Source: a virus
Taxonomy: Duplodnaviria; Caudoviricetes
DNA: 64,000 nt
Virus record (IMG/VR): IMGVR_UViG_3300034053_000029
Coordinates: 146,172-210,171 of that record
Strand: one strand, 5' to 3'
In this document: one piece after another, positions 9,193-28,380 of the stretch
Layout of the letters: each line of letters starts with the position of its first letter
Position numbering within the stretch: the first letter of the stretch is position 1
Position numbers and translations under genes: made by a program
Notes under the pieces: model-generated
The model's input: the letters and a program-made list of their open reading frames with translations, nothing else
Databases searched by the model: none
What the model was told of the DNA's origin: nothing

Positions 9193-9262
9193 ATTAAAAT
9201 TCCTTTCATCATGTTGTATCTTATATTTATAAGAGTCACACTGTTAGAAAGGAATGTTTAAT
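9193..9262 (-). promoter_or_regulatory. RBS-sequestering hairpin with a perfect late promoter (TATAAATA, 9224-9231) in its loop
   Basis: mRNA AUUAAA-C-AUUCCUUUC (9262-9247) pairs with GAAAGGAAU-UUUAAU (9207-9193) directly before the AUG: 15 bp with a one-base bulge. Confidence 0.75.
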
Positions 9263-13900: not shown

Positions 13901-16900
13901 GGAACAATACCTGCCGCATAGAAGTTCAATGATAACGAAGTAAGTCTATCGGTTCCATTCTTACCTTCAACGTCATAAGTCGCTTGCCAGTAATAGAAAC
14001 CAGTTGTTGGATTAGGAACATCGGTGAATGTCGTAGTGATCGTAGATGCTGCTGCCGTACCAGAACAGTTTGCTACCGTATTGCTACCTGATAACTTTCT
14101 TACGACATAATGATACTCGGTGTCTCTTACCACACCTAAAGGATCATCAAAATAACATACACTGGATGCACCCGTACCTAACGTGGTTCCTATGAAAGTT
14201 GTATTATCTCTTGCGGTGAATCCCGGTGTAGTCGATCTGAATATCTGATAAGCGTGCTTGTAAATTGTAAATGTCTGACCACTTATTGTTCTTAATGCAG
14301 GTTTACTTATTTCAAATGTCGTGGAGTTTGTGATAGAAGTCACCAATGTTCCACTGGTATTCGTTCCAACAGCAGGAGTACCGAAATAAATTGCACCAGA
14401 AATTGTACCACCGTTTGTAAGTACTGCACCTACATATAATCCGGCAGTAGACGCACAAGTTACTGTCGTACTACCTAGTGTGGTTGCCACTGAAGTAAGA
14501 GTTAGACCCGCTGTCGTATATTCTTGCGCTTGTGATAATAATGAAATACGATTCCAAACTGGATAAACATTATCATATAACGTCCAAGTAGGAGTTCCTG
14601 CAGTAATGTCGGGTGTGTAAGCGAACTTACCTGTTTGAGTAGAGATAACACCAACGGCATTACCGTTGTTTGTCATACTAATCCAATGGGTGCGTTCTGG
14701 CAAATATTTGAGTGCACCCCATGTTATCGAAGTTGCAGTATTTGATGTGGATACGACGTAACATTGACTTGCTCTTTGTGCATTTGTTGCATCGACTTGT
14801 GGATTACCACCATTGAGTGGAGTTGTTCCTGCAAGTAATACGAATGCGGTTCCGGTATAAATGATCTTGTTGTATGACATACCTGTGGGTAATGTAGGTG
14901 CGGTTCCTGCCGTCCAAGCAACACCATCAGCAGAACACGCTGTTGGACCATTAGTTGCTGACGCAGACACGCAACAGAATGTACCGTTACCATAAGCAAT
15001 TGATTGCCATAACGATGACACATTCACACCACCTACACTCCAAGTTGCCCCATCTGTAGAATATGATGTTGCCGTACTAGCAGTACCACCACCAGAAATC
15101 GCAACGTATCTTCCTGCACTATTTGAAGTAACATCGATCCAAACTGCAGATGCAAGAGTTGTTGCTGCAAATACGATAGACCCGTTTGTGATCGTTCCTC
15201 TTGTTCCTGCCGTACTTACTGCCGTACTTCCACCAACCGCCACCCACTTGTTAGTTGCTTGTGAATTATCAAATGCGAGTGCTGACCAAATGACAGATGC
15301 AGGTTCTGTTGTTACTGTCGACCAATCTTTACCATTCGTTGAATATGCGACTCTGGTAGAAGCAACACCACCACCTTGTATTGCCATGAAGTAATTTTGA
15401 GTAGGGCACCAAATAACTTTCCACCAGCCAGTTGTTGCTGAACCAATAGGCATCATCCATGAAGTCCAAGTTGCGCCATTATCCTCTGACACTAAGCAAG
15501 TATTCACACCTATATCTGATACTAATGCCACCCATACTCCGTTACCATAAGCAAGCGTCGGTGCCGTGCTAGTTGCCCAAGCAGGTAATGCGCCCATTCT
15601 TAGTGGTAATTGTTTCCACTTCTCAGGAGCAGACATGATACCACACATCTTCATACCTTCAACATGGGTAGAAGTATCTGCAAAATTGAAACTTTTGTAT
15701 GATTTTGTCTTAAACCAATACTTTGTATCGTTTGCTAAGAATGTTCCCGTTTCTGGATTGGTAAATGCACGATAACCAGATGCCCACGAATATCCTTCAT
15801 TATGCAGACCAATTTTGTGAGTTATATTTGAAACACTGACGGTGTTAACTGCAGCCGCAGTTAAAATCGTAGATAAATTGTACGCTTTGATATTATTAAA
15901 TGTTTGATTTGCCCCCGCAGTAGTTGTTGATATTACACCATTATACGGGCGAGTTCTTGGGTAACTACCAACGGCAATGACTTTCAGTCCATCCACTGTT
16001 ACGTTATTTGAATATGAAATACTAAATACGCCAGCATTTGATGAACCAACACCAGGATTAGTGCTTGATCCCGCCGCCTGATGACCACCAAATGTCAAAA
16101 CGATATTCGTAAATGTGGCGCCAGAAATATATATCCAATATATTGCAGTGAATGAAGTCCCAGCTGATTGTCCCGTACCAGTATTCATTCTATGCTCACG
16201 CATTACCCAGTTGCCATAATATGTGAATGCAATAGTTCCTGCCGTGCCGAAAGCAGCAGTAGAAACTGTAACCGATGTTGCACTATTGACTGTTGTTACC
16301 GTACAAGCATGAAGGTTCGTTCCGGTCAACAATACACCAGGAATAATTGCTGTTGATGATGGAATGGTAACGGTTGTCGTACTATTAGTCGAACCGGTTG
16401 CACCAAGAGCAGTTGCAGCAGTCAAACACATATTTGATGGTGGTAATCCAAACGCAGTATTAGTTACCGTGACCTGATAACACTCGGATACGAATGGAAC
16501 GTAAGCAAATCCACAATTGGTTATGGTTAACTTTGACGCTTGAGTGTAGTTAGAATACGATTCCCCAAACAAACACTTATTGAATGTGAATACCCCTCCG
16601 AATGGCGTAGTGAAATAACACCCTGCATTATTTGACGCAAAGTTATTCAGTTGGAAGTTTGCGGTTGATGTATCGGTCAAGAGAATATTCTGAACACGAA
16701 TCTTAGCACCGTTTGGTGGAATCTTTCCATTTGTGCCATCACCAAAGCGCAGCGTAGTTGAATATTGCGAGCAGATTGGTAATATACCAATGATAGGAAT
16801 GTTTGCAAATACGTTAGCGGCAATGACAGTCGAGTTTGTCGTGAATATAGTTGCACTAATAATTTGTTCAACTACGCAAGTTGCCGCTAAACCACGACCT

Positions 16901-18438
16901 GTTATCCATGTACCAGGAACCAATCCTGCCGTCGAAGTACAAGTGATGACGTTTGTATTTGGTATGCAATTACAATTTGCTAAGTTCAAATATTGAACTG
17001 CTGCTTGATTGAAATCTTGAGTGAAACAAGTACCAGAATCTCCATCAGATACAGATTGGAATCCGTTTCTGAAATATTTGTATGTTTGGAAATCGGATGC
17101 ACCAGTTACATTCGTCCAAAGTTCATAAATGCCTGTACCACTTCCTGTTTCAACTTCCAATGTTGGTATGTAATCACCATAAACGTATGGAGAAGTAAAT
17201 GTTTGTCCTGCAGCACCATTAGATGTTCCGATTTGAATATAATCACCTTCAACTTCAACTGTTGCTAATCCTGACGCAGCAATAATTGTATTGAGAGCGA
17301 CAGCAGTTGCAAGTTTGTTTGTGGTGAATCGAATAGGAGTCGTGGTGCTAGTATTCTCTATGCGTAATTTACCATTGGTGATATTGAGTGCACTTGCACC
17401 AGTTAATGCTTTCTTTTGATCCGTATTTACGGTTAGTGTTGCACCATTATTGATCGTGAGTGTATCGCCGGTCATGACCTTTGGTTCGATGAGATACACA
17501 CCCAAAATTGCAGCATTAGGACCAGTGAATGGTGTCCATGTAATACCATCAAATGAGAATGCAGCATTGGTCGAAAGTACCGTCAATGCGATAAACATCT
17601 GGCGGCCATCCCATGCCGCTTTACCACCACCGATCAACCAGTTAGCAGACGCAGGTAGCGTAGTAGATGTCCATGTTGCTCCGTTGTCGGTTGAATATGC
17701 AGAAGCAGTACCTGTACTTGGAACGACAACCCATGTTCCATTTGCTCCACCCATACTTGCCCACGAAATACTTGCCCATGCTGCTGTTGATGGGAGTGCT
17801 AATGATACCGTCGACCAACTTTGTCCATTGGTGCTAGTGTAAATGTCTCTTGTACCACTTCCAATAAGAATGAATTTACCATTACGATATTTTAGATCAG
17901 TCCATGTACCGGTTGCAGGTAAAGCGACCGGATTCCATGTGGTGCCATTGTCAGTTGAATATGCACTTGAAGTAGAACCAGACGCTACTGTGACGAATGT
18001 ACCATTACCAAATTCAATCAAGTTCCATGCTGCTGCTGATGGTAAAGCACCACCTGCTGCCCAATCGAGGCCTGCTCTTGGTTTGAATAATGCACAAGAA
18101 GTTGATGACGTATTGACAGTGATAAACGTACCATTACCAAAAGCGAGACCTTTCCATGCAGCACCTGCAGGGAGTGCGGTTGCTCGGTTTGTTGCACCAC
18201 CGGTCAATTCTGGAGTAGTTGTTGCTGTTACCGTCCTATTTGCTGCAATAAAAACTGCCAATTCATCTCCGAATGCGAATCCAGTCCAAGCGACGGCAGC
18301 ATCATTGATGTTACCGGAAGTTGTCCATGTGAATCCATTGACCGATGATGAAATCGTTCTTGAAGATGCAATAGGTGCGTAGAATCTGTATCCTACTTCA
18401 TTTAAATTTTGATTTGTTGTTGCTACATAAGCAGTCAT
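10960..18438 (-). CDS. Giant tail fibre/adhesin (2492 aa) with two Asp-box/BNR beta-propeller regions
   Basis: Repeats YSTDNGTTW, STNGQSW, STDNGATW, SFDGITW, SEDNGATW, STNGKDW, STDGATW, SADGVAW; FN3-like and CBM-like segments; ends DRQYSNPA; upstream neighbour is a fibre chaperone. Confidence 0.8.
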   Translation of the reverse strand: MTAYVATTNQNLNEVGYRFYAPIASSRTISSSVNGFTWTTSGNINDAAVAWTGFAFGDELAVFIAANRTVTATTTPELTGGATNRATALPAGAAWKGLAFGNGTFITVNTSSTSCALFKPRAGLDWAAGGALPSAAAWNLIEFGNGTFVTVASGSTSSAYSTDNGTTWNPVALPATGTWTDLKYRNGKFILIGSGTRDIYTSTNGQSWSTVSLALPSTAAWASISWASMGGANGTWVVVPSTGTASAYSTDNGATWTSTTLPASANWLIGGGKAAWDGRQMFIALTVLSTNAAFSFDGITWTPFTGPNAAILGVYLIEPKVMTGDTLTINNGATLTVNTDQKKALTGASALNITNGKLRIENTSTTTPIRFTTNKLATAVALNTIIAASGLATVEVEGDYIQIGTSNGAAGQTFTSPYVYGDYIPTLEVETGSGTGIYELWTNVTGASDFQTYKYFRNGFQSVSDGDSGTCFTQDFNQAAVQYLNLANCNCIPNTNVITCTSTAGLVPGTWITGRGLAATCVVEQIISATIFTTNSTVIAANVFANIPIIGILPICSQYSTTLRFGDGTNGKIPPNGAKIRVQNILLTDTSTANFQLNNFASNNAGCYFTTPFGGVFTFNKCLFGESYSNYTQASKLTITNCGFAYVPFVSECYQVTVTNTAFGLPPSNMCLTAATALGATGSTNSTTTVTIPSSTAIIPGVLLTGTNLHACTVTTVNSATSVTVSTAAFGTAGTIAFTYYGNWVMREHRMNTGTGQSAGTSFTAIYWIYISGATFTNIVLTFGGHQAAGSSTNPGVGSSNAGVFSISYSNNVTVDGLKVIAVGSYPRTRPYNGVISTTTAGANQTFNNIKAYNLSTILTAAAVNTVSVSNITHKIGLHNEGYSWASGYRAFTNPETGTFLANDTKYWFKTKSYKSFNFADTSTHVEGMKMCGIMSAPEKWKQLPLRMGALPAWATSTAPTLAYGNGVWVALVSDIGVNTCLVSEDNGATWTSWMMPIGSATTGWWKVIWCPTQNYFMAIQGGGVASTRVAYSTNGKDWSTVTTEPASVIWSALAFDNSQATNKWVAVGGSTAVSTAGTRGTITNGSIVFAATTLASAVWIDVTSNSAGRYVAISGGGTASTATSYSTDGATWSVGGVNVSSLWQSIAYGNGTFCCVSASATNGPTACSADGVAWTAGTAPTLPTGMSYNKIIYTGTAFVLLAGTTPLNGGNPQVDATNAQRASQCYVVSTSNTATSITWGALKYLPERTHWISMTNNGNAVGVISTQTGKFAYTPDITAGTPTWTLYDNVYPVWNRISLLSQAQEYTTAGLTLTSVATTLGSTTVTCASTAGLYVGAVLTNGGTISGAIYFGTPAVGTNTSGTLVTSITNSTTFEISKPALRTISGQTFTIYKHAYQIFRSTTPGFTARDNTTFIGTTLGTGASSVCYFDDPLGVVRDTEYHYVVRKLSGSNTVANCSGTAAASTITTTFTDVPNPTTGFYYWQATYDVEGKNGTDRLTSLSLNFYAAGIVPGSIVTGVGIPVGTTVIDVIDFDTVRLSANLTADVKNRGNSRTYVGFSPAPGMFVYGSNVGMNCKVVTVDSNTSMTVSIANTNTFTTQTLRFVAGFELPEITCIPQAPLCYLNLALQNETLATAPWTASGITATNATGQFSPLNNFVGINSANPATTTTQLIATSANGTLTQTIQTGVGTVHTFALWARANLPDNRTYITMKMDLGTTSETKNLTNQWQRFSVSFTTTASTTNAVITLPAIGSSINVAHVTVTRTSAVPPPIANATTTFPVYQFPQQFLNSSGGLYGWNIDGGAGIETTLSTSPWQFWADLHIGTTPSFTPTVQNLLFSNQSPGVEPVISAITSAANINVSNYQPINTKQIHHGFLLFPISGATNVSVKDSTHTINGSLGYVYYAGPGYSVYLHNIDVINVRPYVSTAYMDSSSTSNASSGIKVQNVRSNRVARVPWYVQSLDTQIRGVFGGDPYPLQNGTTWNLSSEPTYSGSQITSQSVFDGMFREYTYGSQPRGCLDIRLIASSKASKPYTITSGTPFFTNDGNLALTTAGDQVVIEWPHFVKGLTGFTRRLPHIYSTDLGLNLVTSLGVLIEYQLDKGSGYGGTWKQLNGVIGMNNLADETGISPSTGVRPKFRITARPTLKYTAQVGQFMPGWVVQNALTSPTATAVVVDDEAVTTVAGSLVVSNITGEWLTSNTIYSGTMNTTMTNTTNASATTTGSNITGTTFTVGTQATGVVAAGMMLTGTNVLTGTYIVSNIAGSGSGSTWLVSKSHSATGTQNINGTNNLITLTSNANFYVGAGVVAIGTTFGGIASGSTNYVSEVIGSTQIAIATSFNNALAGTNATLSTASGSCPIGGIHSTITAVNTSFVFAPQPTSRLNSFRLFTETDTDTAYNYAYSSGSLVLTGLQTDSEVRVFRISDGFELGGTESSGTTFTLNYDYYENTDIIIVIHHLNYLPIRLEDQVLDGTTLTIPVQQTFDRQYSNPA

Positions 18439-18974
18439 GCGTACACCTCAGGCCAATTATTTTCAATATCAAAATGCTCAGGATACTCCAATGCCTCACA
18501 TTGCGCTTTCAGGTATTCTGCATACCCATAAATGGTTTGTTCTTGTGTCATTTGGGCATAATATATCGATGTTGCTAATTCAGGTGTCATCTCAACCTTC
18601 TCGCCTGACATTGTTTTCCACATGATCCCTGCAGGTAAATTATTTCCTGCGATAATCAATGATAGTTGTTGCACTTTTGAATGCGTGTCTGAGTGATACC
18701 AATACTCACCGACCTTGCATCCACCAGTATGAATCTTGGTGTCACGAATCTCTTGAATGCGCTTCCATACCGTGTCGAATATGTCTAATCGTGCGTTATT
18801 GATGGGACCAAATTCTCCGGCAGCAGCACGGGTGAAAAGTTCTCTATTGTATTCATCGGTATCATCACTATGAGCAATGAATGGGACTTCAGAATCGTGG
18901 TCAACAAATTTAACGATCAAACTTATCGAAGTTCTTGTCTTCCATATTGGTTTTAGCGCATACTCATAGTTCAT
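18435..18974 (-). CDS. Tail fibre assembly chaperone (Tfa-like N-terminus plus DUF4376-like C-terminus)
   Basis: V.F.D...VPF.A..DD...Y.RELF..A.AGEFGPI followed by I..IRD.K...G......W.HSD..S...Q; start reassigned to the ATG at 18974, which avoids overlap with 19015..19356 and lies behind a late promoter. Confidence 0.8.
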   Translation of the reverse strand: MNYEYALKPIWKTRTSISLIVKFVDHDSEVPFIAHSDDTDEYNRELFTRAAAGEFGPINNARLDIFDTVWKRIQEIRDTKIHTGGCKVGEYWYHSDTHSKVQQLSLIIAGNNLPAGIMWKTMSGEKVEMTPELATSIYYAQMTQEQTIYGYAEYLKAQCEALEYPEHFDIENNWPEVYA

Positions 18975-19003
18975 TGTATTTCCAACACTGTTAGGTAATA
19001 CTA

Positions 19004-19011
19004 TATTTATG
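19004..19011 (-). promoter_or_regulatory. T4-type late promoter (CATAAATA)
   Basis: Just after the stop at 19015; 30 nt upstream of the ATG at 18974. Confidence 0.6.
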
Positions 19012-19014
19012 TCA

Positions 19015-19356
19015 TCACTTGCAATATATCTTGCGCTCCCATCGATCCTTACAATTTTCACCGGCACATGATTTGATTTCGTTCTTCAACCACTGCAAGT
19101 TTTCAATCTTATCACACCCACCACACGCTAACGGAATAACATGATCTATCGCCCAACCGAGGCAAGAACCCATCGCTTTACCTGTTGATGGGCAATGGTA
19201 TAACTTCCTGAACTCAAATAAAACCTTGTTGTCTCGTTTTATCTTACCATCAACCGTTCTTTCTGGTGCCCCACATATTCTTGAATCTGCAGCATGATAT
19301 GGATCAGGATGAGCAAGTGCAAGTGTTGGGAGTATCAATAGAAATAAGAATTTCAT
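19015..19356 (-). CDS. Secreted HNH (beta-beta-alpha-metal) nuclease
   Basis: Signal peptide MKFLFLLILPTLALA|HP; CPSTG...G.C.GW.IDHVIPLACGG.D..ENLQWL...KD.WE; 8 Cys. Confidence 0.8.
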   Translation of the reverse strand: MKFLFLLILPTLALAHPDPYHAADSRICGAPERTVDGKIKRDNKVLFEFRKLYHCPSTGKAMGSCLGWAIDHVIPLACGGCDKIENLQWLKNEIKSCAGENCKDRWERKIYCK

Positions 19357-19652
19357 CTTAATGTTGGTGTTGTCGTTGCTGCATGAGTTGGTGGGCGGCG
19401 ATCCATACGATCAAGTAACATTTCGATCAATCTTTCTTGTCTTGCTTGTGACGCTTGGATCGATTGTGTTCTTTCATCAACTCGGTCACTTTGCGAACGA
19501 ATCTGGACAATTTCTTTCTTAACTTCCGCATTTGATTTGACTGCCTCTTCCAAAGACTGAATCTTGTATTGTGCTTGACCCCATGCTGCACTCATTGAAG
19601 ATAAAGCAACGATGAGAAACCAATGTTTTTGGAGCCATTCAACCATTTTCAT
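19353..19652 (-). CDS. Membrane-anchored coiled-coil protein (holin/XhlA-like architecture)
   Basis: Hydrophobic WFLIVALSSMSAAWG followed by heptad-rich QSLEEAVK...IRSQSDRVDERTQSIQASQARQE. Confidence 0.6.
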   Translation of the reverse strand: MKMVEWLQKHWFLIVALSSMSAAWGQAQYKIQSLEEAVKSNAEVKKEIVQIRSQSDRVDERTQSIQASQARQERLIEMLLDRMDRRPPTHAATTTPTLR

Positions 19653-19872
19653 GTCCCTTCACTTTAAATCCAAAACTCTTAGCCCTCTTGACAAAATCAC
19701 CTAAATCTTTTGCATGGATGTTTACATTATGAGTGCCTAGCTTTTTACCGTGTAATGGTAAACCTGCAGTTGATTGATGATGAATAATAGAAACTGGATG
19801 CATTCCATTCTCATTTGGTTCACCCACATGAACTGTTGCCATTTCCAATATAAAATCTTTAAATGTTTTCAT
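19639..19872 (-). CDS. Putative internal head protein with T4-type capsid-targeting sequence
   Basis: GGAG spacing favours the second ATG (19872), giving MKTFKDFILE|MAT, a 10-residue CTS; 8 His in 77 aa. Confidence 0.7.
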   Translation of the reverse strand: MKTFKDFILEMATVHVGEPNENGMHPVSIIHHQSTAGLPLHGKKLGTHNVNIHAKDLGDFVKRAKSFGFKVKGHENG

Positions 19873-19897
19873 CATTTCTCCGTCGATTCAATAATAA

Positions 19898-20212
19898 TTA
19901 TCCAAAATATAATATATTGTCTGAAAATCTATCTCTTTTACATTCATGTAACACTTTTGGTATCTTGTGGTTGTCAAGCAAAGTACCAATCTCCAATTTA
20001 ATAACTTTATATGAATCGCATTGTATATCTATATACTTACCATTTTTCTCTTCATAAAAAGGTTTTTTGAATTTTAAAGCTAAAGCTCCATTCAGATTGC
20101 CCTCTAATGGTTCTTCATTTAATGCAGATTGTATCTCATTCAATTCTGTGTCATTCAATTCATAGAATCGATGAATTAAATCGGTTGCAACAATTTTTAA
20201 TGTAGTTATCAT
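19898..20212 (-). CDS. Hypothetical protein
   Basis: ATGA overlap with 20209..20769; AT-rich; no recognised motif. Confidence 0.65.
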   Translation of the reverse strand: MITTLKIVATDLIHRFYELNDTELNEIQSALNEEPLEGNLNGALALKFKKPFYEEKNGKYIDIQCDSYKVIKLEIGTLLDNHKIPKVLHECKRDRFSDNILYFG

Positions 20213-20769
20213 AATGTGTCCTTGCTCAATATAATGTGCTTATCAGAATCAATATCGTCTTCAAAATATTTATCTAGATGATCATTCAAGTTGCTATGAT
20301 CCAATTTCGTCAAAGATTTACCGTCATGATAATAAACGTGGTGCCCATCATCGAGTGCTCGTTTAGTCAATCTCTTCCACATACCATGAGCAGAATCAGA
20401 TTGAGTTTTATCTGTCTTTAGTGGTAAATTTGACTGTTTAAAATGATCATAAATCACATTAGTTGCATGATGTTTAGGTAAATCGCCATGCTTTACTACA
20501 CCAGTTTGTACTTCACATGGTATAGGACTATGAGTCTTTTTTATTGAACAGTAGTGTAATGTTTCTTGTTTGTCATGATCTAAAGTATGATATTCTGTTG
20601 TTCCTTTATATTCATCTCTATGAACTTTAACATTATGGGAAATGTGATTTATTATCGGAGAATCTTTTATAGCAACAAACATCTTTTTGCGTTCATGCTC
20701 TTGTTCTAATTGATTAGGCACATTTAACCTAAATGATTGTTCATTTAAATATTCTCTAAATGTTTTCAA
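20209..20769 (-). CDS. Putative internal head protein with T4-type capsid-targeting sequence; GNAT-like motif
   Basis: TTG start at 20769 overlapping the upstream TGA (TTGA) gives MKTFREYLNE|QSF; 19 His in 186 aa; LKTDKTQSDSAHGMWKRL motif. Confidence 0.7.
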   Translation of the reverse strand: MKTFREYLNEQSFRLNVPNQLEQEHERKKMFVAIKDSPIINHISHNVKVHRDEYKGTTEYHTLDHDKQETLHYCSIKKTHSPIPCEVQTGVVKHGDLPKHHATNVIYDHFKQSNLPLKTDKTQSDSAHGMWKRLTKRALDDGHHVYYHDGKSLTKLDHSNLNDHLDKYFEDDIDSDKHIILSKDTL

Positions 20770-21251
20770 TCTTTTTCCACCCAATTCAATTGGCATCCTT
20801 TTTTTATCAGTGCCATAACTATGTTTGCAGGTATCGGTTCAGATTCAACCACACCACCTTTTTGTAATATCGAACTAACATACTCAGCACATTGCCACTC
20901 ATCATTTTTACCAACAACGACTTTCTTGAAAAATGCTCGCAATGCTTCCATTCTTGAATATTTATTACCGACCAATGAAAGTGCATACTCTTCTAAATCA
21001 GCATGCCAATATTCATCTACGGGAATCCAATAGAACGGAACCTCTTTACTCAAAGGGAATATTCTGATCTTTGGTGATACTGCTTCGAGAATGAATACTC
21101 TTCCTGCAATAACCCAAGCGATACCCACATGAGTATATTCAGATCGAGTGAATATTCTGACCATTTGTGCTTCTAAGTGTTCCCAACTAGTATCCGTCCA
21201 AGCAAGAACGTCACCGGATTTGATTTTTGGGCGGGCGTCAGAGTATTTCAT
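20766..21251 (-). CDS. Permuted papain-like NlpC/P60 enzyme (YiiX/YebB-like)
   Basis: KSGDVL...IFTRSEYTHVGI...ILEA...VGNKY...WQCAEYV: His precedes Cys, as in the permuted family. Confidence 0.85.
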   Translation of the reverse strand: MKYSDARPKIKSGDVLAWTDTSWEHLEAQMVRIFTRSEYTHVGIAWVIAGRVFILEAVSPKIRIFPLSKEVPFYWIPVDEYWHADLEEYALSLVGNKYSRMEALRAFFKKVVVGKNDEWQCAEYVSSILQKGGVVESEPIPANIVMALIKKGCQLNWVEKD

Positions 21252-21784
21252 GGTAGTCTCGTACTTTTCATATGTGATTCCGTAAACATTGGGAACATTT
21301 TATTTTCTTTCAATGTTCTCTTTATTGTAGAGGTATGCATTTCATTTCCTCCAATATTTTCAAAATCATGATTTACATCATATCCATTGTGCTTACCAAT
21401 TCTATCTATTATTGGCTTTAATTTTTTATGTATGTCTGGTCGAGCAACTATCTTAATTGTTTTATCGCTATCGATTAAATCTTTTGCATAATGTAAAGCA
21501 GTTCCAATAAATTTTGGGTTTGGTGAAGAAAGTTTTGGTGGAGCATCTCCAGAAGAATTATCACTAGCTATATGATGAAGTTCGTGATAACCTTTTCGGA
21601 TAGCATGAATCAAATGTCCATTATCGCCTTCTAACTTAAATACTTTAACCGCACCAAATTTATGATCTTTATATGCTTCATCATTATTGAAATGATGTCT
21701 AACCATTTCTTCCATGTCTGGATCATGTTCCATTTTCCATGGCTTATCAAATAACTCAAACAAATACTCTTTAAAGGTGTTCAT
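21248..21784 (-). CDS. Putative internal head protein with T4-type capsid-targeting sequence
   Basis: MNTFKEYLFE|LFDKP; 15 His in 178 aa; additional L-K-E and F-T-E sites near the C-terminus. Confidence 0.7.
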   Translation of the reverse strand: MNTFKEYLFELFDKPWKMEHDPDMEEMVRHHFNNDEAYKDHKFGAVKVFKLEGDNGHLIHAIRKGYHELHHIASDNSSGDAPPKLSSPNPKFIGTALHYAKDLIDSDKTIKIVARPDIHKKLKPIIDRIGKHNGYDVNHDFENIGGNEMHTSTIKRTLKENKMFPMFTESHMKSTRLP

Positions 21785-22122
21785 TTCTTTTGTTCTTTTA
21801 CCGGTTCTTTATGTGCATGATGAAACTCGATATCCTTTTGTAGTTTCTCAATTCGCAAATATGCAATCTGCAATTCATGTTGAGTCTTCAAATCCTGCTG
21901 CTGATGCATGAATAGTAGAATGATTATACCAATAATGGATAACCATGTAACAAACATACCCCATGTGAAGAATGTTTTTAACATTCCAAGTTGATTGATT
22001 ATGTTATCATTTATCGTGTCAAAGATGCGAATCTTATCGATAACTCCACACTTGATGCAATGATCTTTTTCAACAATGCGTGGTCTGTGACGACGATCAA
22101 CGGTGATAGTTTCGTTTTCCAT
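21781..22122 (-). CDS. Single-pass inner-membrane protein with a C-terminal coiled coil
   Basis: TM segment FFTWGMFVTWLSIIGIIILLF; N-terminal DRR and CxxC (CIKC); ATG 2 nt after the porin stop. Confidence 0.7.
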   Translation of the reverse strand: MENETITVDRRHRPRIVEKDHCIKCGVIDKIRIFDTINDNIINQLGMLKTFFTWGMFVTWLSIIGIIILLFMHQQQDLKTQHELQIAYLRIEKLQKDIEFHHAHKEPVKEQKK

Positions 22123-22124
22123 GA

Positions 22125-23195
22125 TTAAAACCTATAAGTTAGTGTTAGGACATAAGTGTTCCATTTTTCACCTGATGAAATTGGGGATGTGTGTTTCTTC
22201 CATTCTCTACCTGATCCAATATGCCATTCTGCTGATATGGTAAATGAATCAATGAGTTTTGTCACACCAATATAGTTATCCTGATATGCTCTTGACGTTA
22301 CCTTGTTGTTACCGTATGAACGACCAACGTATGCGAACCAACTATCCGTGATACATTTACCTACCATGTAATTATATCCAACGGAATCAATGGAAGCAGT
22401 TTGTCTCCCTGATGCACTAAATCCTTTGGTGATACCATGATACCATTCGACTTGGGCAACAAAATCATTCTCGTTAGCGTATTGAACCCCAATCTTGTTG
22501 ATGTAGTATTCCATGTTGTCAATTGATCTGAATACTGCTTTTGCTATTGGAGAATTGTTATCTGCTTCTCCGGTCACTCTGTAATGATTTCTCGACACAT
22601 ACAAGTGCCAATTTTGCATTTCCATGTGACCCGATATATCATAATTGTTTGATGTGCTGTTATGGGTGTAACCAGGAACCAATCGATTGAATGCTTCATA
22701 GTGAAGATCAGTTTGTCTAGGAATGTTCGCCTTACCGTATGACACTTTGGTTTTATAAAGAACGTGATCTGTCTTGAATGTCATTTCGTTCTTGATGCCA
22801 TCCATCAATGTGAATGTGCCATTGAGCATACGGAATGAATAACCTGCAAATGGTAGGATTGCTTGACGATAATTAGCAGGTGAATCGGTGATGCCTTCGT
22901 AGAATGAATCCAAACGACTGAATCTACCAACTTGAAATGTAGTTTCAATGCGCTCCGATAATGGAATCGAATATTCCAAAACTGCTCTTCTGATGGTTTG
23001 ATCTTTGAATGTTGAGAGTTGAGTTCTCGCAGCAAAGGCACCGTTGAAGTAATCAACATTGACCGAAACTATCGTGCGAGGATCATGCCAATCGTGATCA
23101 CCAAACTGAGTCGTATATGCAAATCCAGTAACACTTGTCTCTGCAAATGCTGACGTTATGAAGAATGAGAGTAAAAAGAGAATGTGTTTCATCAT
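22125..23195 (-). CDS. Outer-membrane beta-barrel (porin-like) protein
   Basis: Signal peptide ending AFA|E; alternating beta-strand pattern throughout; C-terminal BAM-type signal YVLTLTYRF; QVGRF....FYE..D.P......LP...Y motif. Confidence 0.85.
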   Translation of the reverse strand: MMKHILFLLSFFITSAFAETSVTGFAYTTQFGDHDWHDPRTIVSVNVDYFNGAFAARTQLSTFKDQTIRRAVLEYSIPLSERIETTFQVGRFSRLDSFYEGITDSPANYRQAILPFAGYSFRMLNGTFTLMDGIKNEMTFKTDHVLYKTKVSYGKANIPRQTDLHYEAFNRLVPGYTHNSTSNNYDISGHMEMQNWHLYVSRNHYRVTGEADNNSPIAKAVFRSIDNMEYYINKIGVQYANENDFVAQVEWYHGITKGFSASGRQTASIDSVGYNYMVGKCITDSWFAYVGRSYGNNKVTSRAYQDNYIGVTKLIDSFTISAEWHIGSGREWKKHTSPISSGEKWNTYVLTLTYRF

Positions 23196-23665
23196 GGTGC
23201 TCCGTCATCGTAAATCTTGAATATTTCAACCTCACCAGTATTGATGATCATTTGGTTTGAATCTAGATATCCAATTGCCCCAATCGTTTTTGCCACTTTT
23301 CTAACGACATCTGCTTGGTTCTCTGCTTTGATGAAATATGCAGCATTACCCTTGTTGATGTATGTAGAGACATTTCTCTCAAATCGTGATACGGAAACAC
23401 CTAGCACTTTCTCACAAAATTCTTGGTGTTCCTTTGAATTGAAATCTTGATAGATCACCGTGATCTTCGTACCGTCATCCCAAAATCGTTTCTTCATAGT
23501 ATACATCCAGAATACTTCCAATTTGGATATTTGATGTGTGTGTTTAGGGATGATACTTTTGATGGGTGCGACTTCAGCAAACACTTTACCAGTAACCGGA
23601 CCTACCATTGCGATAGATGCTCCGATGAGGAATGGCAACCAGAATTTTCTAAGGAATTTAATCAT
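23192..23665 (-). CDS. Small periplasmic protein with a single-lobe type-2 periplasmic-binding-protein-like fold
   Basis: Signal peptide ending VFA|E; ISK.EV..MY..K.R.W.DG.KI.V......S..H.EFCEKVLG...G......EN..DV...VA.T.GAIGYLD; ATGA-coupled to the porin gene. Confidence 0.8.
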   Translation of the reverse strand: MIKFLRKFWLPFLIGASIAMVGPVTGKVFAEVAPIKSIIPKHTHQISKLEVFWMYTMKKRFWDDGTKITVIYQDFNSKEHQEFCEKVLGVSVSRFERNVSTYINKGNAAYFIKAENQADVVRKVAKTIGAIGYLDSNQMIINTGEVEIFKIYDDGAP

Positions 23666-24306
23666 TTAGGTAAACTAACCTGTTTCAATGCTCTGACGTT
23701 GGTTTGAATCAGCTCCATCTGTCTTTCATTCTCTGCAAAGCGATTATCCATCTTTTGTAGAGACACTTTCGTATCTGACATATGGGATTCTATGTCACTA
23801 AAATATTTGTAGAGGAAGTATTGGGCACCGGAACTGAATATGGCAAATGCAGCGAATATACCCTTGAAGAATGACACCCGACTATTGTAATCATCTTTCA
23901 GTGTTTTGAGTTTTTCGTTGGTGTCTTTGATGAGGTCTTGAATCGACGTATTGGTTACTTTGGTTGTAACTTCATGCTCTTTGTCATAAGCATCAAAGTC
24001 CTTGTTAATTGCATCAATTCTCTCATGTATGCGATCAACATTTTTCACTCTCTCAAGTTCGATCTTGTCAATTTTTGTTTCGACCAAAGCGATCTTTTTA
24101 TCAAGAAGATCACCAAGAATGGATACCGATCCTTCGACTTTTTTGATGTTCTCTGAGTTCTGACCTTGCTTCTCTTGAAGAACGGATACATTCTTCAATA
24201 AATCCATCAAGAGGTCTAGTTTTTTATCTTGCTCATTGAAACGCTTATTTGAGGTTTCAATAAATTGAGAGAGCATTCTCTCTAGCAGTTCGTCACTATT
24301 AGCCAT
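23662..24306 (-). CDS. Long coiled-coil protein with one transmembrane helix
   Basis: About 140-aa heptad region, TM FFKGIFAAFAIFSSGAQYFLY, then a second coiled coil; first gene after the late promoter at 24345-24352. Confidence 0.7.
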   Translation of the reverse strand: MANSDELLERMLSQFIETSNKRFNEQDKKLDLLMDLLKNVSVLQEKQGQNSENIKKVEGSVSILGDLLDKKIALVETKIDKIELERVKNVDRIHERIDAINKDFDAYDKEHEVTTKVTNTSIQDLIKDTNEKLKTLKDDYNSRVSFFKGIFAAFAIFSSGAQYFLYKYFSDIESHMSDTKVSLQKMDNRFAENERQMELIQTNVRALKQVSLPK

Positions 24307-24344: not shown

Positions 24345-24352
24345 TATTTATC
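24345..24352 (-). promoter_or_regulatory. T4-type late promoter (GATAAATA) heading the 19015-24306 operon
   Basis: Intergenic; about 40 nt upstream of the ATG at 24306. Confidence 0.6.
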
Positions 24353-24387: not shown

Positions 24388-24960
24388 TTATGGCTTAGTA
24401 ATCTTCTTCCAGAATCCTGTTGGTGAAAAGACGAACATACATTTGCGATCTCTAGAAATATCGTTTCTGGACCAGAGTTTGTGTCCGAAGTTGAGCTTAG
24501 TGCAGTGAGTATCATTCCAATGATGATTGATGTATAATTGCCATGCATAGTCACATCTAGCGAAGAACCACCCACCCATAGTTAAGTCACCAGAGATTAA
24601 TCTAATGTCATTCTTGACAATCTCACCATTGATCTTACGTCTTCCCCATACCTTAACTTCATCACCTTCTTTGTATTGGAACGCTAAAACATCCCAGTCA
24701 AAAGAATATGCAGGATTGCGAAAATACCAAAATACTCTATTGACATACCTTTGCCAACGTGTTATGTTATCCCCTCTATATGGGGCATGATGTTCTTTAA
24801 ATGGTTCATCACCATCTGCGGTATTATCAGGAGTATCTAGATATTTTAACCATCGTGGAAGGTGTCCATTTTCTTGAACAAATAGCGCCCATATAGGAGA
24901 ACCAAGACCACCAATAATAGCCATTATAATATTTAATGGTAAATATAAAAACCAACGCAT
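24388..24960 (-). CDS. Conserved phage protein of unknown function (TPDNxxDGD family), N-terminal hydrophobic segment
   Basis: G.LP.WL.YLDTPDN..DGD...Y..RV.W..RNPAY.F motif that I recognise from proteins next to phage fibre genes; GGAG RBS. Confidence 0.75.
   Translation of the reverse strand: MRWFLYLPLNIIMAIIGGLGSPIWALFVQENGHLPRWLKYLDTPDNTADGDEPFKEHHAPYRGDNITRWQRYVNRVFWYFRNPAYSFDWDVLAFQYKEGDEVKVWGRRKINGEIVKNDIRLISGDLTMGGWFFARCDYAWQLYINHHWNDTHCTKLNFGHKLWSRNDISRDRKCMFVFSPTGFWKKITKP
24938..24945 (+). promoter_or_regulatory. Probable late promoter variant (GGTAAATA) for the + strand HNH gene
   Basis: Same octamer precedes the only other complete + strand gene (gp4); 35 nt upstream of the ATG at 24981, inside the antisense coding sequence. 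Confidence 0.45.
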
Positions 24961-24980: not shown

Positions 24981-25589
24981 ATGTTAAAAGATGAAACTAA
25001 TAATATTTATGGTAGATTGACTGTTATATCAAGATCAGAAAACTATAAAGATGGAACTGCAATGTGGAATTGTTTGTGTTCATGTGGAAATACAACTACC
25101 CAAAAAGGAACATTTTTGCGAAGTGGTACTGTAGTATCATGTGGATGTTACAATAATGATCTACATTCCACCCACAGAATGTCCAAATCTAAAGAATATA
25201 AAACTTGGCAAGGCATTAAAGAAAGATGTTGCAATGTTCATAGTGAGGATTATCTAAATTATGGAGCAAAAGGAATTACTGTGTGCGAAGAATGGAAAAA
25301 TTCATTTGAAAAATTCTTAGAAGATATGGGATCAAGACCAACAGGATGTTCAATAGATAGAATAGATAATTCAAAAGGATATTATTTAGAAAATTGTCGT
25401 TGGGCAACTGCAAAAGAACAAGCTATTAATAGATCATCAACACATTTTGTAACCATTAACGGCGTAACAAAAAGTTTAAGTGATTGGGGAAAATTTCTTG
25501 GTATGTCTCACGCTGCATTTAATAAAAGATTATCAAAAACTAATGATCCAAATAAACTACTTGCACCAAAAGATTCCAGATTCATATGA
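24981..25589 (+). CDS. Free-standing HNH homing endonuclease, antisense to the surrounding genes
   Basis: YGRLTV...W.CLCSCG...LRSG...SCGC...EY.TW.GIK.RC...YG.KGI.VC.EW...FE.FL.DMG.RP...SIDRIDN..GY..ENCRWAT.KEQ..NR; AGAGGA RBS. Confidence 0.9.
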   Translation: MLKDETNNIYGRLTVISRSENYKDGTAMWNCLCSCGNTTTQKGTFLRSGTVVSCGCYNNDLHSTHRMSKSKEYKTWQGIKERCCNVHSEDYLNYGAKGITVCEEWKNSFEKFLEDMGSRPTGCSIDRIDNSKGYYLENCRWATAKEQAINRSSTHFVTINGVTKSLSDWGKFLGMSHAAFNKRLSKTNDPNKLLAPKDSRFI

Positions 25590-27420: not shown

Positions 27421-28380
27421 TTACCATTCAATTACTACGAAACCATCACCACCGGCACCGGAACTTCCACCACTATACCCATACCCTCCGCCCCCTCCGC
27501 CCCCCGCACCGCCTGCGCCTCCGTAGGACCACTGATTCTGTACGTTTACCCACCCAGCCCCTCCGCCCCCCGCACAAAATCCTCCACGACCTCCATAACC
27601 TGTTCCACCGTCTGTAGAAGTCCAAATTGACCCTCCACCACACCCCGGGTCTCCTGGATTTGCAGTGCCCTGTCCCGACGCAACAGCGCCGCCCGCACCT
27701 GTAAATATAAAAGGAGAATAATGTATATTAGAACCTATTGCTGTACCTGAGGCTGCTCTAGTACCACAACCGTTATCTGCCTGATACCCCGTTCCTACAG
27801 GATAAAAGTATACGCTAGAACCGCCATGCGTTAGAAATGTATTTGCGGGGCCTATAGCAGCGGATGGCGGGGTCCCCCACACTCCCCCAGCTGCACCTCC
27901 ACCCCCTACAGCAGCAGCGGCAGTATTTGTAAATGTTACTGCTGCACCTCCAGTAACATTTAAGTCCCCATTAAGCGCAGTACCTCCAGTACCCCCATTA
28001 CATTGAACTGAACTAGCAGAGCGCTGTCCGGCTCCCGCCCCTCCTCCCGTAATAGTATATCCCCCATACGTTACTGTGGTACTACCCCCGCCATTTCCAT
28101 TCCCTACTCCCGAGACTGCAGCACCACCAGCCCCTATAACTATAGTAAGTCTATCTCCTGGTACAGTATTGAAGGTTTTAATAGCACATCCCCCTCCTCC
28201 GCCTCCTGTAACTCTGCCGCCACTTGCAGGAGTAGAGTACCCTCCGCTCCCCCCTGCACCGGTAGCATGTACTCTAATCTTATATACATCTGGAGGGACT
28301 ATCCAGGTAGTTGATATAGGAATTAGTACTATATTACTATAGTTACCCAATTTCCCATTCTTATAATCAAAAGCACCCAT
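27421..28380 (-). CDS. Glycine-rich adhesin (polyglycine, gp38-like architecture)
   Basis: W.VPP.V.KIRV.A.GAGGSGG...GGGGGG.A.K...V.PG..L.I.IGAGG; many poly-Gly segments; ends GAGGDGFVVIEW. Confidence 0.8.
   Translation of the reverse strand: MGAFDYKNGKLGNYSNIVLIPISTTWIVPPDVYKIRVHATGAGGSGGYSTPASGGRVTGGGGGGCAIKTFNTVPGDRLTIVIGAGGAAVSGVGNGNGGGSTTVTYGGYTITGGGAGAGQRSASSVQCNGGTGGTALNGDLNVTGGAAVTFTNTAAAAVGGGGAAGGVWGTPPSAAIGPANTFLTHGGSSVYFYPVGTGYQADNGCGTRAASGTAIGSNIHYSPFIFTGAGGAVASGQGTANPGDPGCGGGSIWTSTDGGTGYGGRGGFCAGGGGAGWVNVQNQWSYGGAGGAGGGGGGGYGYSGGSSGAGGDGFVVIEW

What the first reader, a model, noticed from the sequence alone, without database searches (positions are those of the whole stretch)
21781..24306. 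Phage-borne porin plus mini periplasmic-binding protein flanked by inner-membrane coiled-coil proteins: candidate trans-envelope signalling or gating system
Seen: four coupled genes encode a coiled-coil/TM/coiled-coil protein (214 aa), a 157-aa exported single-lobe PBP-like protein, a 356-aa exported beta-barrel ending YRF, and a single-TM protein with a C-terminal coiled coil (113 aa). From recall, to be verified: this porin and mini-PBP pair occurs in proteobacterial chromosomes next to chemoreceptor, GGDEF/EAL or histidine-kinase genes, and the small protein is often mis-annotated as a phosphate-binding protein. Here no such receptor is adjacent and two phage-style membrane proteins flank the pair, under a late promoter. 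Inference: the phage has captured an outer-membrane-to-periplasm sensing module and either rewired it to its own membrane proteins (for example lysis-timing control, analogous to T4 RI-T lysis inhibition) or uses it to jam the host version, alter permeability, or mask receptors. I know of no described phage system with this composition.
Basis: partly seen in the sequence, partly recalled or inferred. Interest (0 to 1): 0.9.

Follow-up and report, generated by a model that had tools for sequence, protein, structure and literature searches.

The report
Phage porin plus half binding-protein module
A complete 210-kb T4-like freshwater phage, and a whole family of uncultured phages, carry an outer-membrane pore and a half-sized periplasmic binding protein taken from a bacterial envelope-sensing gene pair. 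The phages lack the bacterial receptor and usually carry their own small inner-membrane proteins beside the pair, a combination found in no deposited phage genome; its function is still unknown.

Summary
Four tightly packed minus-strand genes encode:
- a 214-aa helical membrane protein;
- an exported 157-aa one-lobe PstS-like protein;
- an exported 356-aa 16-strand porin-like barrel ending in YRF;
- a 113-aa single-pass membrane protein.

The phage mini-PBP profile hits short ORFs in 79 of 400 sampled Gammaproteobacteria genomes. For 19 of the 26 closest hits, a barrel recognised by the phage barrel profile lies directly downstream. In 18 of the 25 closest loci a dCache_3 receptor is nearby, 17 with GGDEF-EAL output. 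More distant subfamilies sit beside chemoreceptors. This scan had already noted that bacterial module on other DNA.

The phage pair is one deep clade, separate from the bacterial ones (SH-aLRT 98 and 95). It is conserved in all 10 phage loci checked by sequence, usually inside tail-fibre modules. It has no receptor anywhere in the 210-kb genome and lies behind a T4-type late-promoter motif. At least four unrelated families of single-pass membrane proteins flank it in different clades; one locus has the pair alone.

Function is unproven. My best guess is an envelope cue relay to phage membrane proteins. The rivals are host-sensor jamming, exclusion and uptake. No deposited phage genome has any of the components.

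The parts
24345..24351 (-). ATAAATA box (context GATAAATA), a T4-type late-promoter-like motif 38 nt upstream of the ATG of the 214-aa gene
   Evidence: 14 of 18 coding-strand copies in the window lie within 80 nt upstream of a start codon, against 6.5% expected (p = 5e-14). This is motif evidence only; no transcript data.
23662..24306 (-). g1: 214-aa helical protein with a moderately hydrophobic segment at about 145-167. Predicted N-terminus in the cytoplasm and a C-terminal tail of about 45 aa in the periplasm. Phage-specific.
   Evidence: Orthologues (26-41% identity) lie directly upstream of the pair in L001, L002, L223, L006 and L007. No Pfam family, no hit in bacterial loci, none in deposited phages.
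23192..23665 (-). g2: exported 157-aa one-lobe PstS-fold protein (mini-PBP), one half of the conserved core pair
   Evidence: Model and fold matches. Present in 10 of 10 phage loci checked. The profile hits 79 of 400 Gammaproteobacteria genomes, best E 6.8e-28. It has no PF12849 match and no sequence match to any solved PstS.
22125..23195 (-). g3: exported 356-aa 16-strand porin-like outer-membrane barrel. It has a long conserved loop (about 94-129) at the L3 position and a C-terminal YRF signal. Other half of the core pair.
   Evidence: fold; 96 clusters at 50% identity; bacterial homologues adjacent to mini-PBPs; shared loop residues, shortened outer loops; complex score 0.56 against best control 0.01, weak support.
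21781..22122 (-). g4: 113-aa single-pass membrane protein (TM 54-72) with a helical C-terminal tail of about 40 aa. Specific to this lineage.
   Evidence: Homologues occur only in L001, L002 and L223. Proteins of similar topology but unrelated sequence lie beside the pair in L008/L220 and L010.

Best explanation
What is shown. The core of the finding is a phage-domesticated copy of a bacterial gene pair: a dedicated outer-membrane porin plus a secreted one-lobe relative of phosphate-binding proteins. In bacteria this pair sits beside membrane receptors with periplasmic Cache domains (GGDEF-EAL enzymes, chemoreceptors). The phage lineage took the pair once, long ago, without the receptor, and has kept it under selection.

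What is inferred. Both proteins are exported. The barrel is inserted in the host outer membrane through its C-terminal signal, and the mini-PBP probably docks on it. The pair is made late, together with tail fibres. In most phage clades the pair has picked up its own single-pass inner-membrane proteins, here the 214-aa and 113-aa proteins, each with a short periplasmic helical tail.

My committed mechanism (inferred, not shown). The pore admits, or the pair registers, an envelope or extracellular cue. The mini-PBP passes that state to the periplasmic tails of the phage membrane proteins in place of the missing Cache receptor. Their cytoplasmic parts then set a late-infection decision, most plausibly lysis timing or a response to superinfection.
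For: Homology to the bacterial pair:
- The mini-PBP profile hits 79 of 400 Gammaproteobacteria genomes, E down to 6.8e-28.
- The phage barrel profile hits the ORF directly downstream, in the same order as in the phage, for 19 of the 26 closest bacterial mini-PBPs.
- A dCache_3-(PAS)-GGDEF-EAL receptor is adjacent in 6 of the first 10 loci. One lies within about 3.4 kb in 18 of the 25 closest loci.
- More distant subfamilies sit beside chemoreceptors (5 of 10) or dCache_1-GGDEF-EAL proteins (2 of 10).

One old capture:
- Phage and bacterial sequences split at a single branch for the barrel (54 against 26, SH-aLRT 98) and for the mini-PBP (26 against 51, SH-aLRT 95).

Conservation in phages:
- The pair is present in 10 of 10 loci checked, at 21-75% identity.
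- The barrel family has 96 clusters at 50% identity.
- The L3-position loop residues G90, R91, D104, L114, P115, Y119, D132 and G133 are shared with the bacterial barrels.

Physical pairing:
- Complex score 0.56 against a best control of 0.01. Runs agree in at least 87% of contacts and partner pLDDT is at least 77. The tool rates this weak support.
- One bacterial mini-PBP cluster is fused to a TonB C-terminal domain.

Other points:
- No GGDEF, EAL or dCache_3 gene in the complete genome.
- Late-promoter-like motif upstream, inside the tail-fibre module.
- Membrane partners: g1 in 6 of 10 loci and g4 in 4 of 10. Unrelated single-pass proteins lie beside the pair in L008/L220 and L010, so 9 of 10 loci have at least one.
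- The phage mini-PBP has lost bacteria-invariant W99 and P111, as expected if its partner changed.
Against: - No experiment, and no transcript or protein data.
- The pair stands alone in L221, so a phage membrane partner is not obligatory.
- The flanking proteins have no recognisable signalling or lysis domain.
- The complex score is in the range the tool calls weak.
- The only recognisable muralytic gene of this phage is about 95 kb away.
- Small membrane proteins are common in phage genomes, and the loci are not independent of each other.
- The hydrophobic segment of g1 is marginal in this copy.
- Only about 8 of the 54 'phage' barrels in the tree had their genomic context inspected.
Confidence: 0.35

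Rival explanations
1. Host-sensor hijack or jamming. The phage pair acts on the host's own Cache-domain receptors or its resident porin/mini-PBP pair. It would either mimic the signal-bound state or compete as a dominant negative. The result would be a shift in host c-di-GMP or chemotaxis output (matrix, motility, surface receptors) during infection. The flanking membrane proteins would be accessories.
For: - The closest bacterial relatives are the subfamily wired to dCache_3-GGDEF-EAL enzymes.
- The pair alone is enough in L221.
- The phage carries no receptor of its own.
- The loss of bacteria-invariant W99 and P111 would fit a dominant-negative binder.
Against: - The host is unknown, so there is no evidence that it has the resident module.
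- Late expression beside tail fibres is an odd time for host takeover.
- If the mini-PBP alone jams the receptor, the strict retention of the porin in 10 of 10 loci is unexplained.
- Loss of the invariant residues could equally mean that the phage protein no longer touches the host receptor.
Confidence: 0.2
2. Receptor-linked outer-membrane remodelling or superinfection exclusion. This would be a tail-fibre-module moron, like T5 Llp, phi80 Cor, lambda Lom or the PA-2 Lc porin. It would change the cell surface late in infection so that progeny or rival phages do not adsorb to or inject into infected cells and debris.
For: - The cassette lies inside or next to tail-fibre genes in the window. It does so in at least four other loci too: L007, L010, L006 and the P0023 contig.
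- The phage barrels are about 50 residues shorter than the bacterial ones, mainly at predicted outer loops L1, L2 and L7. Those are the parts phages usually recognise.
- Established knowledge: known exclusion morons cluster with receptor-binding genes.
Against: - A newly made porin cannot remove receptors already in the outer membrane within one lytic cycle.
- Nothing explains the obligatory mini-PBP.
- There is no sequence relation to any known exclusion protein.
- The position in the genome is only guilt by association.
Confidence: 0.2
3. Auxiliary uptake module. The porin raises outer-membrane permeability for a particular solute, and the mini-PBP captures it in the periplasm. This would boost a nutrient supply late in infection, in the way cyanophage PstS boosts phosphate uptake.
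For: - The fold is that of a diffusion porin with a conserved loop at the L3 position.
- The partner has a PstS-like fold.
- The phage's tail protein is about 30% identical to those of T4-like cyanophages, which carry pstS (established knowledge).
Against: - One lobe cannot close on a ligand as PstS does.
- No S-G-T phosphate motif, no PF12849 match and no sequence match to solved PstS.
- No inner-membrane transporter is encoded beside the pair in any phage locus.
- In bacteria the pair accompanies sensors, not ABC permeases.
Confidence: 0.12
4. A non-functional passenger or an assembly artefact: a recently acquired bacterial fragment that is decaying, or a chimeric contig.
For: None beyond the lack of any functional data.
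Against: - The frames are intact and signal peptides and the C-terminal barrel signal are kept.
- The same order is found in many independent contigs.
- The phage clade is deep and has conserved motifs.
- GC content matches the surrounding genome.
- The genome is complete, with terminal repeats.
Confidence: 0.02

Closest known systems
Bacterial 'porin + one-lobe PstS-like protein + Cache-domain receptor' cassette. I found no paper describing it; this scan has noted it repeatedly on other genomes, and I re-tested it here.
   Same: - Both proteins are homologous. The bacterial mini-PBPs score down to E 6.8e-28 and the adjacent barrels down to about 1e-21 against the phage profiles.
- In the closest subfamily the gene order is the same, mini-PBP then barrel, and the genes are tightly packed.
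- The L3-position loop residues are shared.
   Different: - The phage version has no Cache receptor at the locus or anywhere in the genome.
- It forms its own deep clade.
- Its barrels have shorter outer loops.
- Its mini-PBP lacks bacteria-invariant W99 and P111.
- It is flanked by phage-specific single-pass membrane proteins and lies in a late tail-fibre module.
Porins of lambdoid (pro)phages: Lc of PA-2 and NmpC of DLP12 (established knowledge)
   Same: Each is a phage-borne 16-strand porin exported to the host outer membrane.
   Different: - Lc and NmpC are OmpC-family general porins of temperate phages, expressed in lysogens and with no binding-protein partner.
- The barrel here matches no Pfam porin family.
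- It is always paired with a mini-PBP.
- It lies in a T4-like lytic-type genome behind a late-promoter motif.
Cyanophage PstS auxiliary metabolic gene (structures 7xg7 and 7xg8)
   Same: It is a phage-encoded periplasmic protein of the PstS fold. 7xg8 and 7xg7 appear among the weak fold matches.
   Different: - Cyanophage PstS is a full two-lobe phosphate binder that feeds the host PstCAB transporter.
- The protein here is one lobe, with no phosphate motif, no PF12849 match and no transporter partner.
T4 lysis inhibition: RI antiholin and T holin (established knowledge)
   Same: It works like a periplasm-facing phage sensor that adjusts lysis timing through single-pass membrane proteins. That is the functional analogy behind my best explanation.
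   Different: - No sequence or domain relation.
- T4 has no outer-membrane component and no binding protein.
- The topology of g1 (long N-terminal cytoplasmic part, short periplasmic tail) is the reverse of holin T.
Tail-fibre-adjacent exclusion morons: T5 Llp, phi80/N15 Cor and lambda Lom (established knowledge)
   Same: These are envelope-targeted accessory genes embedded in or next to receptor-binding genes.
   Different: They are single small lipoproteins or 8-strand barrels. None is a porin plus binding-protein pair, and there is no homology.
Binding-protein-dependent receptors: NspS-MbaA, ScrB-ScrC and LuxP-LuxQ (established knowledge)
   Same: In each, a periplasmic binding-type protein reports to a membrane protein. 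This is the likely logic of the bacterial parent module.
   Different: Those use full two-lobe binding proteins, have no dedicated porin, and have enzymatic receptors that the phage lacks.

Membership tests
General 16-strand bacterial porins (OmpF/OmpC/OmpT/Omp32 type) | 16-strand antiparallel beta-barrel | tested here: met
   The AF2 model has 16 strands (pLDDT 76, pTM 0.74). Foldseek matches OmpT 6ehd at E 2.6e-12, plus Omp32, OmpF, OmpK36 and PorB, and AFDB 'Porin' clusters.
General 16-strand bacterial porins (OmpF/OmpC/OmpT/Omp32 type) | Cleavable signal peptide and C-terminal aromatic beta-signal ending in F | tested here: met
   Read from the sequence: AFA|ET near residue 18 and C-terminal ...LTYRF. 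F356 is conserved in 94% of phage and 100% of bacterial homologues.
General 16-strand bacterial porins (OmpF/OmpC/OmpT/Omp32 type) | Loop L3 between strands 5 and 6 folded into the lumen as a constriction | tested here: inconclusive
   A 36-residue loop lies at exactly that position and is the most conserved part of the family. The model gives it pLDDT below 50, so its placement is unknown.
General 16-strand bacterial porins (OmpF/OmpC/OmpT/Omp32 type) | Sequence membership in a curated porin family (Pfam Porin_1, Porin_4, Porin_O_P and others) | tested here: not met
   No Pfam, NCBIfam or PHROG family at E <= 0.1-1.
General 16-strand bacterial porins (OmpF/OmpC/OmpT/Omp32 type) | Trimeric assembly and measurable channel conductance | not testable with these tools
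   Needs biochemistry or electrophysiology.
PstS / PBP_like_2 phosphate-binding proteins | Two-lobe Venus-flytrap fold | tested here: not met
   The model has a single alpha/beta lobe of about 110 residues. It covers only about 30% of PstS targets (TM by target 0.17-0.32).
PstS / PBP_like_2 phosphate-binding proteins | Sequence match to PF12849 or to solved PstS proteins | tested here: not met
   No PF12849 hit on the protein or anywhere in the genome. The profile finds no PstS among PDB sequences.
PstS / PBP_like_2 phosphate-binding proteins | Phosphate-clamp residues, including the S-G-T motif (E. coli S139-G140-T141; from established knowledge) | tested here: not met
   No S-G-T or S-G-S anywhere in the 157-aa sequence (read). 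No residue-level structural mapping was available.
Bacterial porin + one-lobe PBP sensory-input pair | Mini-PBP homologous to the bacterial short PBP family | tested here: met
   The profile hits 79 of 400 Gammaproteobacteria genomes and 23 of 301 genomes of the Roseivirga phylum; best E 6.8e-28. Atlas and AFDB neighbours are bacterial 120-196-aa PBP-domain proteins.
Bacterial porin + one-lobe PBP sensory-input pair | Homologous barrel gene immediately adjacent | tested here: met
   The phage barrel profile hits the adjacent ORF for 19 of the 26 closest bacterial mini-PBPs, in the same order as in the phage.
Bacterial porin + one-lobe PBP sensory-input pair | Adjacent membrane receptor with a periplasmic Cache domain (GGDEF-EAL, chemoreceptor or kinase) | tested here: not met
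   It is present beside the bacterial pairs. It is absent from all phage loci inspected and from the whole 210-kb genome.
Bacterial porin + one-lobe PBP sensory-input pair | Family-invariant mini-PBP residues (W at window position 99, P at 111) | tested here: not met
   W99 is 100% conserved and P111 92% conserved in 51 bacterial sequences. The phage set has V (58%) at 99 and variable residues at 111.
Two-component spanin (i-spanin plus o-spanin) | Outer-membrane lipoprotein with a lipobox cysteine, paired with an N-terminally anchored coiled-coil inner-membrane protein | tested here: not met
   None of the four proteins has a lipobox. The outer-membrane component is a 16-strand barrel. The TM segments of g1 and g4 are not N-terminal.
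T4 RI / holin T lysis-inhibition proteins | Sequence membership in the holin T or RI families | tested here: not met
   No Pfam or PHROG match for g1 or g4 beyond chance-level hits.

The most novel reading that the evidence does not exclude
A lineage of T4-like and other large phages runs its own trans-envelope sensor. It was built by taking the porin and half-binding-protein input stage of a bacterial sensory cassette and coupling it to phage-invented single-pass membrane transducers, recruited several times independently. The sensor lets the phage read an external or periplasmic cue and set lysis timing or its response to superinfection. This would be the first outer-membrane-to-cytoplasm signalling device known to be encoded by a virus.
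Probability: 0.3. Interest if true: 0.9.

Novelty: new variant of a known kind. Interest (0 to 1): 0.72.

Why it matters
- Phages are known to carry single outer-membrane proteins and single binding proteins. A conserved, co-evolving pore and binding-protein pair lifted from a bacterial sensing module has not been described.
- It is kept in at least 96 sequence clusters of uncultured phages. It shows that phages domesticate the input stages of bacterial signalling.
- It offers a natural 'receptor-less' version of a widespread bacterial module that is itself unstudied, which could help work out what that module senses.
- If the relay reading is right, it would give a handle on how large lytic phages time lysis or detect competitors.

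Tried and rejected
- Pfam, PHROG and NCBIfam scans of all four proteins gave only chance-level hits.
- Megablast and tblastn of the region, the barrel, three divergent barrels, the mini-PBP and g1 against 50,697 deposited phage genomes found no match.
- Pattern-based scans of 185k bacterial species genomes and of IMG/VR with the barrel and mini-PBP alignments found no relatives. These scans were too insensitive: profile searches of sampled genomes then found the bacterial family.
- The word-indexed profile search for the mini-PBP reached only phage members.
- Sequence search of the PDB with the mini-PBP profile found nothing real.
- hhalign found no relation between g1 or g4 and the single-pass proteins of L008 and L010.
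- The Atlas search for g1 gave only unnamed clusters.
- My heptad-periodicity script could not tell g1 or g4 from the globular mini-PBP, so 'coiled coil' remains unverified.
- Endolysin searches in the genome (Phage_lysozyme, Peptidase_M15_4, Amidase_2) found nothing. SLT gave one hit about 95 kb away.
- Relatives cannot be drawn for a virus record, and L008 is not held.
- Spanin, PstS-type uptake and chimera readings were considered and rejected, as set out under Membership tests and Rival explanations.
- Complex prediction for the barrel plus mini-PBP gave 0.56 against a best control of 0.01 ('weak support'). I use it only as a minor point.
- The tally includes genome G044, which is flagged unpublished.

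Full report
**1. The observation**

- g1/g2 and g2/g3 overlap by ATGA. Two bases separate g3's stop codon from g4's start. g4 overlaps the next ORF by ATGA.
- g2 and g3 have ordinary cleavable signal peptides and no lipobox.
- g3 ends in TYRF.
- g4 has a strong TM segment at 54-72.
- The hydrophobic stretch of g1 (about 145-167) is only moderate in this copy (Kyte-Doolittle 1.25). It lies at the same position, and is stronger (1.5-1.8), in orthologues.
- I could not verify 'coiled coil' formally.
- GC content is the same as in the surrounding DNA.

**2. What the genome is**

The window is the last 64 kb of a complete 210,171-bp IMG/VR virus record with direct terminal repeats.
- The cassette lies inside the tail-fibre module. 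PHROG tail and tail-fibre families hit 27424-28380, 29581-31290 and 32690-36499 upstream, and a DUF4376 tail-fibre protein lies at 18438-19067 downstream.
- A tail protein is about 30% identical to those of T4-like cyanomyoviruses.
- The DNA shows up only weakly, in freshwater metagenomes.
- The heptamer ATAAATA is not enriched overall. However, 18 of 19 copies are on the coding strand, and 14 of those 18 lie within 80 nt upstream of a start codon (6.5% expected, p = 5e-14). One copy (GATAAATA) lies 38 nt upstream of g1.

**3. The two exported proteins**

*g3 (barrel)*
- With a six-sequence alignment, g3 folds as a 16-strand barrel (pLDDT 76, pTM 0.74).
- It matches general porins: V. cholerae OmpT at E 2.6e-12, then DcaP, Omp32 and OmpF. 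It also matches AFDB 'Porin' clusters.
- A 36-residue loop between strands 5 and 6, the position of porin loop L3, is poorly modelled but is the most conserved part of the family.

*g2 (mini-PBP)*
- g2 folds as one alpha/beta lobe with core pLDDT above 90.
- Its PDB matches are all PstS proteins, but weak (best E 1.6e-3).
- Better matches are short bacterial 'PBP domain-containing' proteins of 120-196 aa.
- The ESM Atlas places it among bacterial 136-161-aa clusters auto-named 'phosphate ABC transporter substrate-binding protein', mostly from Pseudomonadota. One of the neighbouring clusters is fused to a TonB C-terminal domain.
- It is not a PstS. It has no PF12849 match, no sequence match to solved PstS, a single lobe, and no S-G-T phosphate motif.

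**4. A conserved phage module**

The barrel's close homologues are all metagenomic. A profile search of 1.84 billion representatives found 96 clusters at 50% identity. None of the 20 clusters looked up carries a telling name; most have a single member, and a few are also held in NCBI or JGI assemblies. Every context I inspected is phage-like: many small ORFan genes, tail-fibre domains, T5_p143, Gp77, PhoH, endolysins, ribonucleotide reductase and giant proteins.

All-against-all comparison and profile scans give the following for ten loci with sequence:

| Component | Loci where present |
|---|---|
| g2 + g3 (core pair) | 10 of 10, identities from 75% down to about 21% |
| g1 family | 6 of 10: window, L001, L002, L223, L006, L007 |
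| g4 family | 4 of 10: window, L001, L002, L223 |
| Other single-pass membrane protein next to the pair | L008/L220 and L010, unrelated to g1 and g4 |
| Pair alone | L221 |

- L223 tolerates two inserted genes inside the cassette.
- Outside the cassette these phages share few genes.
- No deposited phage genome has any of the components.

**5.

Pattern scans were too insensitive. A profile of eleven phage mini-PBPs then hit short ORFs in the sampled genomes as follows:

| Group sampled | Genomes with a hit | Best E-value |
|---|---|---|
| Gammaproteobacteria | 79 of 400 | 6.8e-28 |
| Phylum of a Roseivirga genome | 23 of 301 | 2e-16 |
| Class of a Rhodospirillaceae genome | 1 of 301 | 8e-4 |

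In 50 fetched loci:
- The phage barrel profile recognises the ORF directly downstream of the mini-PBP for 19 of the 26 closest hits. This is the same gene order as in the phage.
- The next gene is a dCache_3-(PAS)-GGDEF-EAL membrane protein in 6 of the first 10 loci.
- With a local profile of its periplasmic part, such a receptor lies within about 3.4 kb in 18 of the 25 closest loci. Seventeen of these have GGDEF-EAL output.
- More distant mini-PBP subfamilies mostly have the reverse gene order. They sit beside chemoreceptors (5 of 10 sampled) or dCache_1-GGDEF-EAL proteins (2 of 10).
- The best bacterial hit is in Methylotuvimicrobium buryatense 5G. Relatives occur in Methylococcaceae, Chromatiaceae and Cellvibrionaceae.

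So the recall is correct. Earlier notes of this scan describe the same bacterial module on other genomes; I used them as leads and re-tested the claim. I found no paper describing it.

**6. How the phage pair relates to the bacterial pair**

- In maximum-likelihood trees the phage and bacterial sequences split at one branch. This holds for the barrel (54 against 26, SH-aLRT 98) and for the mini-PBP (26 against 51, SH-aLRT 95).
- That fits a single old capture followed by long diversification in phages. Two caveats apply. The bacterial sample is Gammaproteobacteria only. Only about eight of the 'phage' barrels had their context inspected.
- Shared conserved barrel residues cluster in the L3-position loop (G90, R91, D104, L114, P115, Y119, D132, G133) and in the last strands (E250, E323, H325, W345, F356).
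- The phage barrels are about 50 residues shorter, mainly at predicted outer loops L1, L2 and L7.
- The phage mini-PBPs keep the fold-core residues but have lost residues that are near-invariant in bacteria: W99 (100%), P111 (92%), F104, Q94 and P63.
- The complete phage genome has no GGDEF, EAL or dCache_3 gene.

**7. Do the two proteins bind?**

A complex prediction with controls scored 0.56, against a best control of 0.01. The three runs agree in at least 87% of contacts and the partner's pLDDT is at least 77. In the tool's calibration the pass mark was reached by 58 of 80 solved complexes and 2 of 110 mismatched pairs, but the tool rates scores of 0.60 or under as weak support. Together with strict co-occurrence, overlapping genes and the TonB_C fusion, I consider binding likely but not shown.

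**8. Mechanism**

*Shown*
- The homology of both proteins to the bacterial pair.
- The predicted folds.
- Long conservation inside phages.
- The absence of a receptor.
- The position in the tail-fibre module.
- The late-promoter-like motif.

*Inferred*
- Export and outer-membrane insertion.
- Contact between the barrel and the mini-PBP.
- Late expression.

*Speculative but committed (confidence 0.35)*
- The pair registers an envelope cue and hands it to the short periplasmic tails of phage single-pass membrane proteins.
- Different clades have recruited such proteins at least four times, much as the bacterial pair partners with many receptor types.
- Their cytoplasmic parts then set a late decision such as lysis timing.

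*Against this reading*
- The pair stands alone in L221.
- g1 and g4 have no recognisable domain.
- The only recognisable muralytic gene (SLT) is about 95 kb away.

*Rivals*
- Jamming or hijack of host Cache receptors (0.20).
- A tail-fibre-module exclusion or surface-remodelling moron (0.20).
- A permeability or uptake module (0.12).
- An artefact or decaying passenger (0.02).

**9. Comparison and novelty**

It works like, and descends from, the bacterial porin/one-lobe-PBP input pair, but it fails that module's defining third feature, the adjacent Cache receptor. It is not a member of the PstS family, of any curated porin family, of the spanins, or of the T4 RI/T proteins (see Membership tests). 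Phage-borne porins (Lc, NmpC) and phage PstS genes exist, but neither resembles this paired, receptor-less, late-expressed module. I rate it a new variant of a known kind, with real interest because the family is large, confined to phages and functionally unexplained.

Noticed in passing
window, minus strand: 63487, 57284, 49144, 40483, 32681, 25010, 24351, 20273, 10957, 9230, 8374, 8042, 2432, 673: ATAAATA boxes lie 24-65 nt upstream of start codons (14 of 18 coding-strand copies, p = 5e-14). This is probably the phage's T4-type late promoter. Exact TATAAATA occurs only three times, at 9224, 32675 and 63481.
   Followed up: partly
window 21248-21784, 20209-20796, 19639-19875 (minus strand); also L223:7456-7932: ORFs downstream of the cassette begin with, or contain near the N-terminus, leaders like MNTFKEYLFE, LKTFREYLNE and MMKTFKDFILE. 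These resemble T4 internal-protein capsid-targeting sequences. In L223 a gene with the leader VKTFKEYLEE is inserted between the mini-PBP and the barrel.
   Followed up: no
window 19353-19652 and 19015-19356 (minus strand): A 99-aa protein has an N-terminal hydrophobic segment and a long charged helical tail (i-spanin-like shape). It overlaps by 4 bp a 113-aa protein that has a signal peptide and a weak HNH-like motif (PF14279 E 8.5e-4; phrog_6050). There is no lipobox, so it is not a classic spanin pair.
   Followed up: partly
window 24981-25589 (+ strand): An HNH homing endonuclease (phrog_374, E 3.9e-64) is the only large plus-strand gene here. It lies between the tail-fibre genes and the DUF7338 gene.
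   Followed up: partly
window 24388-24960 (minus strand): A DUF7338 / phrog_2143 membrane protein (E 5e-32) lies directly upstream of the cassette with its own ATAAATA box. It does not accompany the cassette in the other loci.
   Followed up: partly
window 10960-18438 (minus strand): A 2,492-aa ORF with no Pfam or PHROG match lies next to a DUF4376 tail-fibre protein. Giant proteins of about 2,400-2,700 aa also flank the cassette in the P0023 contig (2,407 aa), L008 and L009 (2,713 aa) and L220 (2,670 aa).
   Followed up: no
L010:9210-9365: A 51-aa ORF after the barrel duplicates the C-terminal part of that locus's own mini-PBP (43% identity over 44 aa, including the IGYL motif). It is probably a remnant of a second copy.
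   Followed up: no
L144, L147, L153, L168, L172, L174, L182 (bacterial loci): In several bacterial genomes the mini-PBP, the barrel or both are duplicated in tandem. One genome (G316) has seven mini-PBP hits.
   Followed up: partly
G000:C1:74300-74593 (outside the window; L225): An SLT-domain ORF (E 3e-19) is the only recognisable muralytic gene I found in the phage. It lies about 95 kb from the cassette.
   Followed up: no
window 20766-21251 (minus strand): A 161-aa protein (phrog_1128, E 1.3e-11) is 51% identical to a gene at the equivalent downstream position in L002. It is the only flanking gene shared with that locus.
   Followed up: no
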